From Octopus sinensis (taxonomy: Eukaryota), in NCBI RefSeq assembly GCF_006345805.1, contig NC_043002.1, forward strand, positions 17,050,001 through 17,114,000: a DNA stretch of 64,000 bases, read 5' to 3'. Position 1 is the stretch's first letter. The number at the start of each line of letters is the position of its first letter. The position numbers and the translations under genes were made by a program. The notes beneath the pieces were generated by a model that did no database searches, was not told where the DNA came from, and was given only the letters and a program-made list of their open reading frames with translations. Shown here piece by piece: positions 12,908 to 59,824 of this stretch.

Positions 12908-13237
12908 TATTTCGGAATGGTCATATTGCCAGTTTAGCCAATAAAAACACACGCACTATATAAAATGGCTGACGGTTAGTAAGGAGAGACACAAGTAAGT
13001 GAGAAGAAAACAAAGGACCACTGATGCGGTCACAGGAGTGTGACGAAAGAACTTTGTCCGAAATAAGATTAAGATTAATGTAAAAAATAAATATCACTGA
13101 AGCAAAATAACACCAAATAATAGTGCGTGTGTTTTTATTGGCTAAACTGGCAATATGACCATTCCGAAATATAACAATATCTGTTTCAACACACGACTTC
13201 ACATAAAACAACCTTGCACAACAAATATTTAAACGTA
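12908..13237 (+). mobile_element. Small fold-back element in (TA)n: 51-bp inverted repeats around a degenerate hammerhead-like motif
   Basis: 12908-12958 is the reverse complement of 13121-13171. 13015-13059 reads ggacca-ctgatgc-g-gtcaca-ggag-tgtgac-gaaa-gaactt-tgtcc. Confidence 0.65.
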
Positions 13238-16200
13238 TAATATATATATATATATATATAATATATATATAATATATATATATATATATGTGTGTGTGTG
13301 TGTGTGTTGTGTGTGTGTGTGTGTGTGTTGTGTGTGTGTGTGTATGTGTATGTGTCTGTGTGTCTGTATGTGTAAAATCTATATATATATATATATATAT
13401 ATATATGTATAAAAATGTGTATACATATATGCTCATGTATAATATGTGTAACGTGTGTATGGAAATATATTCGCATTTATCAGCTACTTGAAAACAAACA
13501 CTCATATGTGTGTGCGTTCGTGTGCGTTCGTGTGTGTTTGTGTATGTATATGTATATATCATATAAATAATTGTGAACAAATTTTAGGATTGTAAGCTCA
13601 TGTATATAGAATATGTTTATGGCCACGGCTATGTATACCTGCATATACGTGTGTGCATGTGTGTGTGTGCGAGTTTGGGTATGTACACATAGATGTTTGG
13701 TGGTTTAGTTGATGTTCTGTCTGAGCACATAGGAGTGGTTTTGATTAACATGAGGAATCGAGAGAGGATATCAGATGTTTTTTTTTGTTTTTTTCCAACC
13801 CATAAGAGATATATAAATGAAAGGAGTGAAGCGTCATGCTTAAATGATCATAGTTACGAAATTAATCACTTTTCATTGAACTGGAAAATGTTATTTCTAG
13901 CTATAATAAATGTGAAAAAAAAAAACAAGGGTAACTTATTTATAGACGTAAAAGCTATGAATATAAAGTGGGAAAATTGAAAATTATATATATTGAAAAA
14001 AACTACAATCTTCTGTTTATATCTAACCGAACATATATATATATAATATATATATATATATATATATATATATATATATATATATATATATATATATATA
14101 TATATATATATATATTATATATATATACATACATACATACATACATATATATATATATATATAAATAATATATATATATATATATATATATGTATATGTA
14201 TATATGCATACATATATATATATATATATATATGTCTGTGTGTGTGTGTGTGTATATCCAAGCACACATAAATATATTATATATATATATATATATATAT
14301 ATATGATATGCATGTGTGTATACATATATAATCTTTTGCAATCATTGCATTCATAATGCTTTGCCAAATGTTGAACAATATTTCTAGTTTAATATATATT
14401 CAATATATGTATATAGCCCCTGATATTCAGAATTATCTGACATTATTATTAAGTAAACACTTAAAAATTACCGCTTGTAATTACATACTTGGTCAAAAGT
14501 TAATACACACAAAAGCACTCCGTCGAGCACGGGCACATGCAGAAGCCCGCACGTGCACACACAGGCACGTGCTCCCCTTCACAAACATATACCCAGGCTC
14601 TTGCACATGATTCTGTTTGCACTCAGATCACCTAAATCTCTGCGTTTCATCACCTCAAATTATACATCACTAATCAGACTTTTTTTTGTTACTCTTTTAT
14701 TCATATATTCAAAAGACATATGTCTATCTCGCCTCCCTTTGTATATTTAAGATATATTTTGTTATTTGTGATCAATAATTCTCTGTCATGTTTGTTGTTT
14801 GATGCCATTGTGGCCAGAAGGGAAAATGTTCATATCTTTCTTAGTATGATATATGTTGGATCCGAAAGACGCTTATTTTCCTAGGTGATTTTAATCAATA
14901 AACAGGATTCATCACCGAAGAAATACGAAATTTAATCGATGGAAAATGCCTCCGGGTTAATTGCAATTCACACACACACACAGACACAAACACACACACA
15001 CATGCATACAGACACTAGCACACATACATATAAACACAGGGTGGGACACACATGTACGAATGCATATGACCGTCTTGTAACCTTTTTCATGTAGTTCTCA
15101 TTTTAGTATAGAAGAATCATTACAGTATATAACGAAGGTATCGTGGATGATTCCATTAATATATATGTTCAGCGTTTTACTTGTATATTCACAAATTTAT
15201 TCAAATAGAGAAAGGAGCCTCATCACTTCAGAGTAAACCTTATGGTTTCACCCACAATATCACTCTATTGATTTGAAAGTACATCTCTCTCTTTCCCTCT
15301 CTCTCTCACTGGATATGTCTGTGTTTGGCAGGTGGAGGGCTGGAGATAACATAACGTCTTACCCATTTTCCACCCTGAAAGTTTTACATATTAAAAGATT
15401 GCACCAGAATCAAATAAATTATATATAACTGAGTGTATATTAAAAGTATAATAATTTTTAGTATAAATGTCCCAACTGTTTATAATGTATTAGTCTGATT
15501 ACTAAATGCAAACGCTTTTAGTAACTCGCGCTTCGCTGAGGATATAATGTTACGTCTGACGACATTGTACTTCTCGCGAAGCAAACTGGTATATGCTTAT
15601 ATCTAGTACCAATATTTATGATTTAAAATACTAGACGTATCTGAATTATATATTTTATTTCATCCCATACATCCTAAGATATACAACAATAATTATGCAT
15701 TCTACATGGTACAAATGAGCGCGCTATTGTACAATGTAAAAGGCTGATTTCTGGTAATTTGCGATTGATTTACATATCTATATGCTACACATCATAATCT
15801 GAATACAGGATGAGGGCATATTTTCTGTGATGAATTGTGAAGTGGAGATGATACCATACCCTCGAGAGCAAACCGATTAAATATATAAAACTGCATATTT
15901 TACAATTTTTGAAGATTTTTCTGTAAAGGTTATTTAAAAACTATGAAAGCATATATATTTATATTAATAGACGTGCTTGTTTTTATACTCGTAATAGTGT
16001 ACGAAGTACTACTGATATATATATATATATATATATATATATACATTGGTGTACGCTTCAGTGTGTGTGTGCATACATGTACTCGCTCATATACACTTAC
16101 TAAAGATTTCATCCTTCACTCTCTCCCCATATCTACATATATATATACATATATAAGCATACACATACATAGAAACACCACACACACACACACACACACA

Positions 16201-56924: not shown

Positions 56925-57139
56925 ATATATATAAAGTAATTAATAATTGTGGTTTTGGGAGCAATTGCTTTTATTTTAGGAAGTGGTATTATATATACCC
57001 TACCTAATCTTAAATTACTTTATATTGTACCTGTAAAGGTGTGAACTTGCTAGCCACCTTATTATTACTGTATATAACGGTAAAAGTCCTACTATATATT
57101 ATATGTATATTTATACATACATTATATATACACATATAT

Positions 57140-59824
57140 GTGTGTGCGTGAGTGCGTGCTATTTTATTCCACACGGGTGGAAACCAGAAAAATAGAAGAT
57201 GAAAACGCTTTGAGAATAATTAAAATATTCTTTATTTATATATGTAAAGCTTTAAACGGTTACACAGTTTACACTTATTTTCAAAACATTTCAAATAGAA
57301 AGACCTGTCTCAAGTGGCAGCTGTCTTGCTTCTGACCAGTGTTGGACCTTTTTATATAGGGAGTTCATGGCTCAAAGTAGTATATGTTTCGAATAGGATT
57401 CTTTCGGTTGAGGATAGTCACATGCCTGCTCTAAGAAATTTGTGTAGGTTCTCCACTCCGTCTTCGTGTGTCAAGTGACAATATATGGTGTCATAAGTAA
57501 AGGCTGACAATCAATGCTCTGAATATATTCTGTCAAGTGTTTTTTCAGAATGAACAAATGATTAAGTTTATAAACTTTTGTGCGTTTCCCGCTACACCCG
57601 TGCGTTAGTGTCACGTGAAAGTGTATTTTGCGCCTAACTGGAATACTGACACGGTTTAGTGAACATGTTTAGTTACAGTCAAGGCATTCCAAATTTAATC
57701 TGTCTGGTGGGAGAGTGGACATGATTCGTTTGTATGTAATCCAATGGTTAACGTTTAGGTTGTTAGTTGTGTAGGTTCTTCATGATAAGTGCCAGGATAA
57801 GTTTTCTGGCTGAATAGTTTGTTAAGCCTTGGTTTATACTTTTGTATGAAAGTATATTTTTGTCTAGCCGTGTTTTACCTGTCGTATTCACTGAACATAC
57901 GTCGAGTGGGGAGACCTGAAATATGGACGAGGTAATTTTTGCATATATCTATGTGTCCACTCAGCGGAGTCTGTCTACTATTGGCGTCTTATATTTGTTG
58001 TCGGTAAATGACCAGACTATTTCTTAGAGTAAGCTTTGTTTGACCGATGTAATTTTCATTACATCCTTAACATTTCATTGCGGATATTAAATTTGCTTAA
58101 GAACATGTAAAGTGATTTTTACGGTAAAAATATGTTCATATTAGAAGCTTATGTTGTGTCTCAAATAAGGTTGATGCAAGTCCCGTATATGGGGCGACCA
58201 CACTTTTGGTGGTAGATGTAGAAATTGTGGAAGGTACTTTGTGAGGAATTTAAGGGGTGGTAAATTTCATTGTCTTTTACTTTTGATTGTTTTGTGTATT
58301 TCTAATGTGTGTTTTATTCTTGGGTCATGTTTTAATAGTGGGATATTCTGGTGGATAATATTGTAAAACACTGTGTTTCTTGAGCTGTGTAATAAAGGGT
58401 AGAGAGTATTGGATGTATCTGGATCGTTTATCGTTTTCCGTACTTCCTCGATATTTATTGCTTTGGCAGTATTACTCTTTTGTCTATAAACATTAATGGA
58501 TATTGTCTTTTAAGTAATACCTGTTTTAGTTCCTGGTGCTTTCTATTGAGAGATTCCGGTTTTGATACAATTGTGCAGATTCTTCTTGCTAGAATAAGTA
58601 TTATTGGCATGAGGATAGTTAATTACTCTTTAGAATCTGTATAGTGGATATATGTTTCAAAGTTTTTATCTCTTTCGAAGATCACTATATGCAGGAATGG
58701 TAGATGAGTTTTATTGTATTCCATGATAAAGTTAATATTATTATTTATGTTGTCAACTAGACTTTCCAAATGTGTGCATTCATAGGATTACGCAGTCATC
58801 AAAGTAACGTTTCCAATTTTGCAGTTGATATTTGTGTAAGATCAAGTCATACTTTAATTTATATTCTAAGACTCTATTCCCTGGAGGGAAGACGGGATAC
58901 TTATGCAGTAATATGTATCTGTAAGATCCTGGAAGGAATTGTGCCAAATTCTGGCATTGAAAGCTACACCAATACCAGAACGGGACGACACTGCATAGTG
59001 TCAAAGATCCCAGCAATGCCATCACGCTTCAGGACCAGTTACTGCAACAGCTTGCGTTTCAAGGGCCCACAGCTTTTTAATATTCTCCCAAAGAGCCTTA
59101 AGAACCTGCACAAAGTAGAGGTAGGGATTTTAAAATCAAGGCGGTACCTCTTCCCGTCGGGAGTTCCAGATGAACCTACCTCACGGCACGAGGTGCAAAT
59201 GAGGGTAGCTACACCAAACTCCATTCTTCACCAAGTGCCACATATTAGAGGAGGCTTTCAGTAATAACAGCGTAGCAATACGGCGGTGCATCAGCATGGC
59301 CGCAGTTCTGAGCTGAAACTAGGGAGAGAAAAAATAATATCTGGACCTCCATGTAAGCAGATTTTGTCCCCATCGCTGTCCCAGATATTTGTTTGTAAAT
59401 ATTTCCATCGAAGACAAAAAAGTTGTTTTCGAGGATAAACTTTAATCCTACAGTTATGAAACTCTTTTCAGTTCTGTCCGCAATTTCATGAGGAAATTTC
59501 AGAAGCCCCAATTTTCTTGCCTCTAGTCCATATTAGTTTCGGATAGTGATATAGAGGTTTACTACATCAAAAGTTACAATAATGGTATCATTGTCTATGA
59601 ATTTTGGAAGATGGTTTAAGAGGTCAAGGTACAGGTCGACCTTTGCAAGACTTGTTATGTTTGAAAATAGAGGAAGCTTCATACACTAGTCAGAAGTAAA
59701 ATATCTGCGACATAAACCACGTCTTTCTATTTGAACCTTTTGAAAATCAGTGTAAAACCTGAAACCGGGTTAAAGCTTTGAATATCTTAACTATTATCAG
59801 TGCATTTTCAATTTCTATTTTTCT
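57140..59824 (-). mobile_element. Decayed Neptune-like Penelope element (RT plus GIY-YIG), interrupted by a LINE, with an inverted pseudo-LTR fragment at its 5' junction
   Basis: Minus strand DTIIVTFDVVNLY, FILENNFFVFDGNIYKQISGTAMGTK, FIMEYNKTHLPFL, KCGRP..GTCINL, FTCS.ANLI..KC.GCNENYIGQTK. 57186-57304 is inverted relative to 59721-59824. Confidence 0.8.
58771..59325 (+). mobile_element. CR1/L2-group LINE 3' fragment nested in the PLE
   Basis: LRLYSLEGRRDTY...FKGPQLFNILPKSLKNLH...PDEPTSR, a diverged relative of 49651-50826 with the same 3' UTR motif. Confidence 0.85.

What the first reader, a model, noticed from the sequence alone, without database searches (positions are those of the whole stretch)
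12908..59824. One insertion design shared by four unrelated hammerhead-associated elements targeting (TA)n
Seen: elements at 12908-13237, 27263-31797, 42972-43676 and 57140-59824 have no obvious sequence similarity. Each sits in or beside (TA)n and carries an inverted copy of its own 3' region at the 5' junction (about 50, 1960, 270 and 110 bp). Each leaves roughly 50-100 nt of the 3' end unpaired. Three have recognisable hammerhead motifs near the 3' end, and the fourth has a decayed trace. Established: PLEs have pseudo-LTRs with minimal hammerheads, inverted 5' junctions and a microsatellite bias. Inference: this genome hosts a dense, diverse system of autonomous PLEs and non-coding hammerhead retrozyme-like dependants that routinely creates palindromes. 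The constant offset may mark the second-strand priming or template-switch point.
Basis: partly seen in the sequence, partly recalled or inferred. Interest (0 to 1): 0.75.

Follow-up and report, generated by a model that had tools for sequence, protein, structure and literature searches.

The report
Two-armed Penelope and retrozyme insertions
Four unrelated jumping repeats here (three truncated Penelope-like retrotransposons and one non-coding ribozyme repeat) sit in TA microsatellites as back-to-back arms, a known layout, but in the three families counted the two arms almost always end at two different fixed points, which likely means the enzyme copies one RNA twice, once from each side of the cut chromosome.

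Summary
The four inverted elements are real. E1 and E4 are truncated Neptune-type Penelope-like elements (PLEs). E2 is a truncated Hydra-type PLE. Only E3 is non-coding: a 588-bp tandem hammerhead retrozyme. The layout (inverted 5' arm, one-sided tail, TA bias, hammerhead) is published.

What is added here is quantitative. In 107 of 112 inverted insertions (55 of 56 in loci from tail-free queries) one arm ends at a family-fixed short site and the other at a long site. Both arms carry the same subfamily alleles. A third stop at the same inner point. Four of five non-microsatellite cases show 8-12 bp target duplications.

The offset is fixed within a family but differs between families (about 37, 56, 73 and 103 nt; 132-156 in other Hydra families) and is not tied to the ribozyme. 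Best model (0.6): both nicked target strands prime reverse transcription at two start sites on one RNA, and the two cDNAs are end-joined. The retrozyme carries the same footprint and a Hydra-style hammerhead; its partner enzyme was not found. This scan noted the same pattern before on other DNA.

The parts
12855..12910 (.). (TA)n target, left of E1
12906..12962 (-). E1 inverted arm (short-end arm, a few nt shorter than the family's modal short end)
12960..13237 (+). E1 direct arm: 3' stub (pLTR) of Neptune-type PLE family F1, long end at 13237
13015..13059 (+). E1 minimal hammerhead with A9C and a CUU triplet, predicted inactive; predicted cut after 13054
13182..13237 (+). F1 family tail (56 nt between modal short and long ends)
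13238..13289 (.). (TA)n target, right of E1
27206..27262 (.). (TA)n target, left of E2
27263..29218 (-). E2 inverted short-end arm, 1956 bp, includes a mirror hammerhead (core at 27377)
29222..29269 (.). E2 central junction: 16-bp inverted micro-duplication (29222-29237 pairs with 29254-29269), like snap-back synthesis
   Evidence: read; 16-nt insertion
29235..29738 (+). E2 3' part of the Hydra-type ORF: CxCX5C linker and GIY-YIG endonuclease
29739..31797 (+). E2 2-kb 3' region/pLTR of Hydra-type family F2, long end at 31797
31595..31672 (+). E2 minimal hammerhead, canonical core CUGAAGA...GAAAC AUAU GUA; predicted cut after 31668
31714..31797 (+). E2 unpaired tail (84 nt; family mode 73)
42950..42973 (.). 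(TA)n target, left of E3
42972..43270 (-). E3 inverted short-end arm with ~45-nt internal deletion and a mirror hammerhead (core at 43209)
43268..43678 (+). E3 direct long-end arm: part of the 583-588-bp non-coding tandem retrozyme F3
43294..43385 (+). E3 type I hammerhead, CCGAUGA (U4C; CUGAUGA in 42 of 87 family copies), long helix II, GAAAC GUAC GUC; predicted cut after 43379
43576..43676 (+). E3 unpaired tail (101 nt; family 103-110)
52029..52241 (+). second F3 copy: single arm with long end, followed by (TA)n
57160..59682 (-). E4 main arm: decayed 5'-truncated Neptune-type PLE (RT, Cys linker, YIG remnants; many stops), long end near 57160
57250..57290 (-). E4 hammerhead-like motif (family form UUGAAAA...GAAAC CG GUU, U3-A8), decayed here
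57160..57186 (-). E4 unpaired tail (27 nt here; family about 37-40)
58872..59320 (+). LINE fragment nested in the E4 ORF (72% to 49672-50126)
59683..59824 (+). E4 inverted short-end arm, followed by (TA)n at 59825-59848

Best explanation
These are insertions of Penelope-like elements and of one non-coding hammerhead retrozyme whose two arms end at two different family-fixed sites, likely because the PLE enzyme cuts both strands of an AT-rich target and each cut end primes reverse transcription of the same RNA at one of two start sites. Shown here: one short and one long end per insertion, target-site duplication, shared alleles, and frequent co-terminal inner ends. Shown in vitro for another PLE (PMC11167929): both strands are cut and extended, and there are two internal start sites that bound the tail. 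Inferred: two RT sites, probably a dimer, occupy the two starts on one RNA so that they exclude each other. The rear RT would displace the front cDNA. Both often run to the same broken RNA 5' end, and the two same-sense cDNAs are joined head to head by host end-joining. When one arm is lost or never extended, a plain 5'-truncated copy with either end results. The 588-nt retrozyme likely borrows a Hydra-type enzyme and is probably copied from a circular or multimeric RNA. Hammerhead cleavage does not set the offset and is probably dispensable for insertion.
For: Pairing: 107 of 112 inverted insertions are short+long (F1 46/47, F2 30/30, F3 31/35); 55 of 56 in loci from tail-free queries, where independent choice would give about half. 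Ends are bimodal. One event: 8-12 bp target duplications flank 4 of 5 F1 inverted insertions outside microsatellites (read). One template: arms agree at subfamily-diagnostic sites in 125/126, 225/228 and 264/277 cases against 0.77, 0.61 and 0.58 for shuffled pairs; 40 private variants are in both arms and 154 in one arm. Inner ends lie within 25 nt in 11/40, 9/25 and 13/31 pairs against 2.3, 1.0 and 3.4 by permutation, p<=5e-5 each. Short site primes by itself: unpaired ends in tail-free loci are 7 short/7 long (F1) and 6/4 (F2); F3 single-arm copies are 17/7, one of the 17 an aberrant end at q204; 14 of 20 short-only F3 copies have TA-type DNA on the 5' side too. The short arm reaches further in 37 pairs, the long arm in 26. 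9 of 11 modal ends overlap TA by 2-4 nt against a 10-23% background. Junctions show mean overlap 1.56 nt against 0.69 by chance (43 joints) plus inserted letters in 37 of 80. F3: longest frame 67 aa; successive monomers differ 1.0% within an arm against 3.65% between insertions, and 0.9% against 1.1% arm-to-arm in the same 12 insertions; hammerhead build and long tail match Hydra families of this genome.
Against: Five pairs break the rule (1 long/long in F1; 2 long/long and 2 short/short in F3, some rearranged). Allele sharing can also come from two RNAs of one master locus or from gene conversion between arms. Unequal arms can arise by later central deletion of palindromes (recalled). Inner ends are not enriched at ribozyme cut sites (2 of about 110 F3 arm ends at q104, by eye), so why arms co-terminate is not shown. 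In vitro, top and bottom strands use the same start sites and priming is reported as not homology-based (PMC11167929); mutual exclusion was not tested there. Some of the 37 junction insertions are artefacts of my reference. No PLE with F3-like pLTR was found in 50 Hydra loci. Samples are the best-scoring 40 candidates per query out of 64-3502, not a census. F4 pairing was not counted systematically.
Confidence: 0.6

Rival explanations
1. Two RNAs, one asymmetric complex: both target ends prime, but each RT subunit copies its own RNA, and the complex's geometry forces one to use the long site and the other the short site.
For: Explains the short/long rule, target duplications and either arm being longer without strand displacement. 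Allele sharing could reflect one active master locus at a time.
Against: Does not predict co-terminal inner ends in 33 of 96 pairs against about 7 expected, nor 40 private variants shared by both arms.
Confidence: 0.2
2. Self-priming or fold-back (related to the self-priming proposal in PMC3846280): one cDNA primed at the long site snaps back, copies itself to the short site and is joined to the other target end; later deletions break the symmetry.
For: Predicts identical arms, co-terminal inner ends and the short/long rule. Small hairpins occur at junctions, as in E2 at 29222-29269.
Against: The short arm must lie inside the long arm, yet it reaches more than 25 nt further in 37 of 96 pairs, by up to 4.1 kb. 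Among the 33 co-terminal pairs it is longer in 19, shorter in 11 and equal in 3 (hand count). Short-only copies are as common as long-only ones, 14 of 20 in F3 have TA on both sides, and their end spectrum differs from that of short arms in inverted copies (11/20 vs 4/31 at q>=311, p=0.002). Both sites initiate RT in vitro (PMC11167929).
Confidence: 0.12
3. The retrozyme F3 is not moved by PLE enzymes but spreads as a DNA repeat or with another retroelement, and its likeness to PLE insertions is convergent.
For: No autonomous partner with similar sequence was found; tandem arrays can grow by recombination.
Against: F3 shows the full footprint: TA target 103/110, two fixed ends, 31/35 short+long, co-terminal arms, random 5' truncation and a Hydra-style hammerhead.
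Confidence: 0.05
4. The inversions are assembly fold-back artefacts, or two separate insertions into one TA run.
For: Long-read assemblies can make false palindromes (recalled); TA runs are hot spots, and one adjacent second insertion was seen (L028).
Against: Family-fixed unequal ends, target duplications around the whole unit, arm divergence from 0.7-1% up to 28% in E4, and allele sharing within insertions.
Confidence: 0.02

Closest known systems
Insertion units of endonuclease-bearing PLEs (PMC8557442, passages; PMC3846280, passages)
   Same: 5' truncation, partial tandems, inverted 5' copy, tail at one end, 8-10 bp target duplication around the whole inverted unit, TA bias.
   Different: Published tails are 30-40 bp and 'optional'; here about 37-156 nt by family and near-obligate on exactly one arm. 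No counts of end pairing, arm co-termination or allele sharing were seen in the passages read.
Poseidon PAc of the green anole in vitro (PMC11167929, parts 1-2 of 4)
   Same: Both strands cut and extended, AT-rich target, two internal RT starts bounding the tail, predicted dimer, hammerhead cleavage dispensable.
   Different: Different clades here (Neptune-type, Hydra-type); the parts read give no model for inverted arms or for exclusion between the two starts.
Hydra-clade PLEs (PMC8557442, passages)
   Same: F2 has RW(A), DKT, CxCX5C linker, CxxC and CxH motifs, a canonical-core hammerhead and TA insertion.
   Different: F2 has a 2-kb microsatellite-rich 3' region. No tree was built here.
Metazoan non-LTR retrozymes (PMC7229834, passages; bioRxiv 10.64898/2026.07.22.740005, parts 1-3 of 5)
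   Same: F3 is a non-coding, 36% GC tandem repeat with one type I hammerhead per monomer and a palindromic loop 3; 588 bp lies inside the 51-972 bp range of the preprint.
   Different: The published PLE link rests on shared hammerheads, co-occurrence and pLTR homology. F3 shows the PLE insertion footprint itself ('inverted' occurs 0 times in the main text of PMC7229834). Circular RNA and cleavage were not shown here.
L1 twin priming (recalled, no call)
   Same: Both target nicks prime cDNA on one RNA and give an inversion joined by microhomology.
   Different: L1 inverts without duplicating sequence and its second start is variable; here both arms copy the same sequence from two fixed starts.

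Membership tests
C-terminal EN+ PLE, Neptune type (F1, E1) | single ORF with PLE RT and C-terminal GIY-YIG | tested here: met
   L141 1044-aa frame with SMDVVSLYPSID, YVDD and YVGET motifs; Pfam RVT_1 only weak, E 0.002, below cut-off
C-terminal EN+ PLE, Neptune type (F1, E1) | CX2-5CxxC linker | tested here: met
   CTDNYCTVC = CX4CxxC (criterion)
C-terminal EN+ PLE, Neptune type (F1, E1) | RT phylogeny places it in Neptune rather than Nematis | not tested
   no reference set on hand; the label rests on motifs and recall
C-terminal EN+ PLE, Neptune type (F1, E1) | minimal hammerhead in the pLTR | tested here: inconclusive
   fold present, but core CUGAUGC in 87 of 98 copies and CUGAUGA in 9
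C-terminal EN+ PLE, Neptune type (F4, E4) | RT, Cys linker and GIY-YIG in order | tested here: inconclusive
   decayed frames read by eye (GTAMGT, YFDD, CGRPIYGTC, NYIGQT); no tblastn hit from F1/F2 proteins in the window copy
Hydra-clade PLE (F2, E2) | RWK-like and DKT motifs | tested here: met
   RIRWAAY and IIPADKTG in L121 (criteria)
Hydra-clade PLE (F2, E2) | CxCX5C linker, CxxC and CxH around the EN | tested here: met
   CNCRCASEC, CQLC, CIH in window 29139-29738
Hydra-clade PLE (F2, E2) | hammerhead and (TA)n insertion | tested here: met
   (84 of 87 ends)
Hydra-clade PLE (F2, E2) | phylogenetic placement with reference Hydra RTs | not tested
   no named Hydra references; 910 mostly unnamed homologues
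Metazoan non-LTR retrozyme (F3, E3) | short non-coding tandem repeat, low GC | tested here: met
   588-bp period, longest frame 67 aa, 36% GC
Metazoan non-LTR retrozyme (F3, E3) | type I hammerhead in each unit | tested here: met
   6-bp helix I, long helix II, GAAAC GUAC GUC; canonical core in 42 of 87 copies, U4C in 45; no Rfam hit at gathering score
Metazoan non-LTR retrozyme (F3, E3) | self-cleavage and circular RNA | not testable with these tools
   needs a biochemical assay and raw RNA reads
Metazoan non-LTR retrozyme (F3, E3) | homology to the pLTR of an autonomous PLE | tested here: inconclusive
   only hammerhead architecture is shared; no sequence match to F1, F2, F4 or 50 Hydra loci apart from a cousin non-coding insert
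L1-type twin-priming inversion | inversion without duplication, variable second start (recalled) | tested here: not met
   arms duplicate each other and both starts are fixed

The most novel reading that the evidence does not exclude
PLE transposition is intrinsically two-armed: a dimeric RT-endonuclease primes both target ends at two mutually exclusive start sites on a single RNA, with tail length set by each family, so inverted, short-only and long-only copies are outcomes of one reaction. Non-coding hammerhead retrozymes such as F3 are rolling-circle templates that hijack this reaction from Hydra-type PLEs, which can be read directly from their insertion scars.
Probability: 0.45. Interest if true: 0.72.

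Novelty: new variant of a known kind. Interest (0 to 1): 0.5.

Why it matters
How PLEs make their tandem and inverted insertions is stated as open in PMC8557442, and how animal retrozymes are mobilised is stated as open in the 2026 preprint. The short/long rule, co-terminal arms and target duplications give a concrete model that the existing in vitro PLE assay can test with two marked RNAs. The retrozyme's footprint is direct genomic evidence of which class of enzyme moves it. The youngest F1 copies carry two changes at hammerhead core positions yet are near-identical and abundant, in line with the in vitro result that cleavage is dispensable. The layout itself is known, which limits the surprise.

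Tried and rejected
Rfam: among the 150 of 243 rows shown for the window there was no hammerhead (nearly all were microRNA models on microsatellites), and there was none at gathering score in 6 loci; minimal hammerheads needed my own descriptor. My first descriptor missed true motifs through a lazy loop-3 match and was replaced (E2 and E3 motifs in both arms plus 2 probable chance hits; shuffles give 0.57 relaxed and 0.1 canonical hits; the window copies of E1 and E4 do not pass). The look-alike in E3's tail was rejected as a hammerhead. A constant distance from the ribozyme cut to either end was rejected. A constant offset between inner ends equal to the tail length was not seen (by eye). A weak F3 match in Hydra locus L340 proved to be a separate cousin insert in a TA run, not a partner. 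A Pfam-family search of the genome was not available. Expression: no RNA holder listed; contigs of four runs covered most of the monomer and two showed the end-to-start joint, but tandem DNA gives the same joint and the RNA status is a guess, so this is not used. The sign test printed was typed with a miscount (20 of 31; correct is 19, 11 and 3 ties), and its last probability line used an earlier count of 38; neither is used. Literature searches for an earlier statement of the pairing rule or a two-primer model found none; the library lacks most subscription papers, including the original Penelope tail papers, and no supplements were read.

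
Full report
Setting. The window is G000:C6:17050001-17114000 in a 2.72-Gb animal genome, 34% GC and full of (TA)n. The nearest named relatives of the F2 protein are from Argonauta hians, so the host is probably a cephalopod. I call the four window elements E1-E4 and their families F1-F4. 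Positions 'q' count along the query used for each family.

Observation. All four inverted repeats exist at the stated places. Unpaired 3' ends are 64, 84, 101 and 27 nt. The families are unrelated in sequence. TA adjacency is far above chance: 280 of 314 ends in F1-F3 against 7.7%.

What each element is. E1 is the last 278 bp of a young family, with best copies 98-99% identical. Longer copies carry an RT and GIY-YIG frame of up to 1044 aa with a CX4CxxC linker, so this is a Neptune-type PLE by motif. E2 keeps the endonuclease end of an ORF whose fuller copy (L121) has the RW, DKT, CxCX5C, CxxC and CxH motifs given for Hydra in PMC8557442. E4 is an old copy (77-82% to its relatives) of a PLE on the minus strand, broken by stops and a nested LINE fragment. 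E3 is the only non-coding one: a 583-588-bp monomer found as partial tandems of up to four turns, longest frame 67 aa. Its circular fold is more stable than 40 shuffles made in two-letter blocks (z -4.5).

Hammerheads. F2 has a canonical core. F3 has a type I motif with a palindromic loop 3, canonical in 42 of 87 copies and U4C in 45; these counts are arms and monomers, not independent insertions. F1 has CUGAUGC in 87 of 98 copies. The 75 copies with both A9C and U17 are near-identical to the young type (median 100%), whereas 8 copies with the intact core and C17 are about 89% identical to it. F4 has a U3-A8 variant of the kind described in PMC4209133, with a U-U pair where G10.1-C11.1 is usual. 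Predicted cut sites lie about 127, 45, 196 and 68 nt before the short end, so the ribozyme does not set the offset. F3's motif has a 61-nt helix II region and a 4-nt loop 3, like those of F2 and other Hydra families here and unlike the short F1 and F4 motifs.

Two fixed ends. Ends are bimodal in every family. F1: q222 (42) and q278/281 (51) of 117. F2: q274-277 (29) and q349 (35) of 87. F3: q305/314 (40) and q408/415 (39) of 110. F4: 8 short and 21 long among 29 relatives. Modal tails are 56, 73, 103-110 and about 37-40 nt. Eight of 20 loci of other Hydra families gave tails of 132-156 nt. Published tails are 30-40 bp (PMC8557442, PMC3846280, PMC11167929).

The pairing rule. Of 112 inverted insertions with both ends in view, 107 pair a short with a long end: F1 46/47, F2 30/30, F3 31/35. 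In loci reached by queries lacking the tail it is 55 of 56; a few of these loci were also reached by tail-bearing queries. Independent choice between equally used sites would give about 28. The exceptions are one long/long in F1 and four in F3, two with a very short or rearranged arm. Each search scored only its best 40 candidates of 64-3502, so this is a sample biased to copies like the window's.

One event, one template. Four of five F1 inverted insertions outside microsatellites have 8-12 bp direct repeats around the whole unit (read). Arms share subfamily alleles (125/126, 225/228, 264/277) well above shuffled pairs (0.77, 0.61, 0.58), and 40 private variants occur in both arms against 154 in one. 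Inner ends fall within 25 nt in 33 of 96 pairs against about 7 by permutation. That test used 40 of 46 F1 pairs, 25 of 30 F2 pairs and 31 of 35 F3 pairs; the rest were dropped because the junction was not mapped or the pair was not short+long, and four F1 values were estimated by eye. In the other 63 pairs the short arm reaches further in 37 and the long arm in 26. Single arms with the short end are as common as those with the long end, and 14 of 20 short-only F3 copies have TA-type DNA on both sides. Central joints show modest microhomology or inserted letters, some templated and some artefacts of my reference. E2 has a 16-bp snap-back hairpin there.

Mechanism. From PMC11167929 (parts 1-2 of 4 read): a PLE protein cuts and extends both target strands, starts cDNA at two internal sites that bound the tail, is predicted to be a dimer and does not need ribozyme cleavage. 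With the counts above, the simplest model is that both nicks of a staggered cut prime at two mutually exclusive starts on one RNA, aided by 2-4 nt of TA pairing (9 of 11 modal ends). The rear RT would displace the front cDNA, both often stop at the same RNA break, and end-joining fuses them head to head. Displacement, dimer geometry and the joining enzyme are inferred; polymerase theta as a candidate is recalled knowledge. A two-RNA asymmetric complex remains possible (0.2). Fold-back self-priming, close to the proposal in PMC3846280, fits co-terminal arms but not longer short arms or short-only copies (0.12).

The retrozyme. F3 shows every part of the footprint, so it likely uses a PLE enzyme, most plausibly Hydra-type by hammerhead build and tail length. 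No partner with matching sequence turned up in F1, F2, F4 or 50 Hydra loci. Arms read through monomer joints and the ribozyme site. Successive turns differ no more than the two arms do (0.9% vs 1.1% in 12 insertions) and much less than separate insertions (1.0% vs 3.65%). This fits a circular template or a very homogeneous multimer and does not separate the two.

Known and new. The layout is known (PMC8557442 and PMC3846280, passages; PMC4209133, parts 1-2 of 4, also notes paired hammerheads on opposite strands 100-700 bp apart). The retrozyme-PLE link is proposed from shared ribozymes, co-occurrence and pLTR homology (PMC7229834, passages; bioRxiv 10.64898/2026.07.22.740005, parts 1-3 of 5). 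I found no printed statement of the pairing rule, co-termination or a retrozyme with this footprint in seven searches. Subscription papers and supplements were not seen and may bear on this. Earlier notes of this scan report the same rule on other DNA, including this genome; they are not independent support. Verdict: real, mostly known architecture, with a testable mechanistic rule. New variant of a known kind, interest 0.5.

Noticed in passing
window 510-1041 and 4490-5021: 532-bp inverted pair (98.7%) of another element that by eye encodes a restriction-like endonuclease end, beside (ATT)31 at 375-467 and (AAT)21 at 4387-4450; resembles R4/Dong LINEs that target (TAA)n (recalled)..
   Followed up: partly
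window 4971-5867: 298-aa frame with a zinc-knuckle-like CHRCLESGHIKKYC motif, like a LINE ORF1; no Pfam hit.
   Followed up: partly
window 43685-43858: Self-complementary 174-bp element (78%) directly right of E3's TA run; possibly another decayed two-armed insert.
   Followed up: no
window 49672-50765 (-), 7499-7747 and 58872-59320: Fragments of one LINE family (RVT_1 hit E 4e-11 at 50151-50765); one is nested in E4.
   Followed up: partly
L340 3061-3430: A cousin of F3 (about 80% in patches) as a small two-armed insert with a tail of about 100 nt in a TA run upstream of a Hydra ORF.
   Followed up: partly
L321-L370: Seven further clusters (below 80% protein identity to F2) of Hydra-like ORFs, several with open frames of 780-960 aa, tails of 132-156 nt and long-helix-II hammerheads, some with U4C.
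   Followed up: partly
L141 2310-5444: The F1 ORF has a long asparagine-rich N-terminal stretch, recalling the N-rich inserts of rotifer Penelope elements in PMC3846280.
   Followed up: no
F3 copies: Single-arm short copies end mostly at q314 while short arms of inverted copies end mostly at q305 (11/20 vs 4/31 at q>=311, p=0.002); unexplained, may be a subfamily effect.
   Followed up: partly
L036 (G000:C4:107343304-107346704): An F3 inverted insertion with a (TA)n run at its centre between arms that both stop at q86.
   Followed up: no
window 10767-11376, 22384-22556, 33362-33693, 63039-63448: Another dispersed repeat family in direct and inverted copies, 70-88% alike.
   Followed up: no
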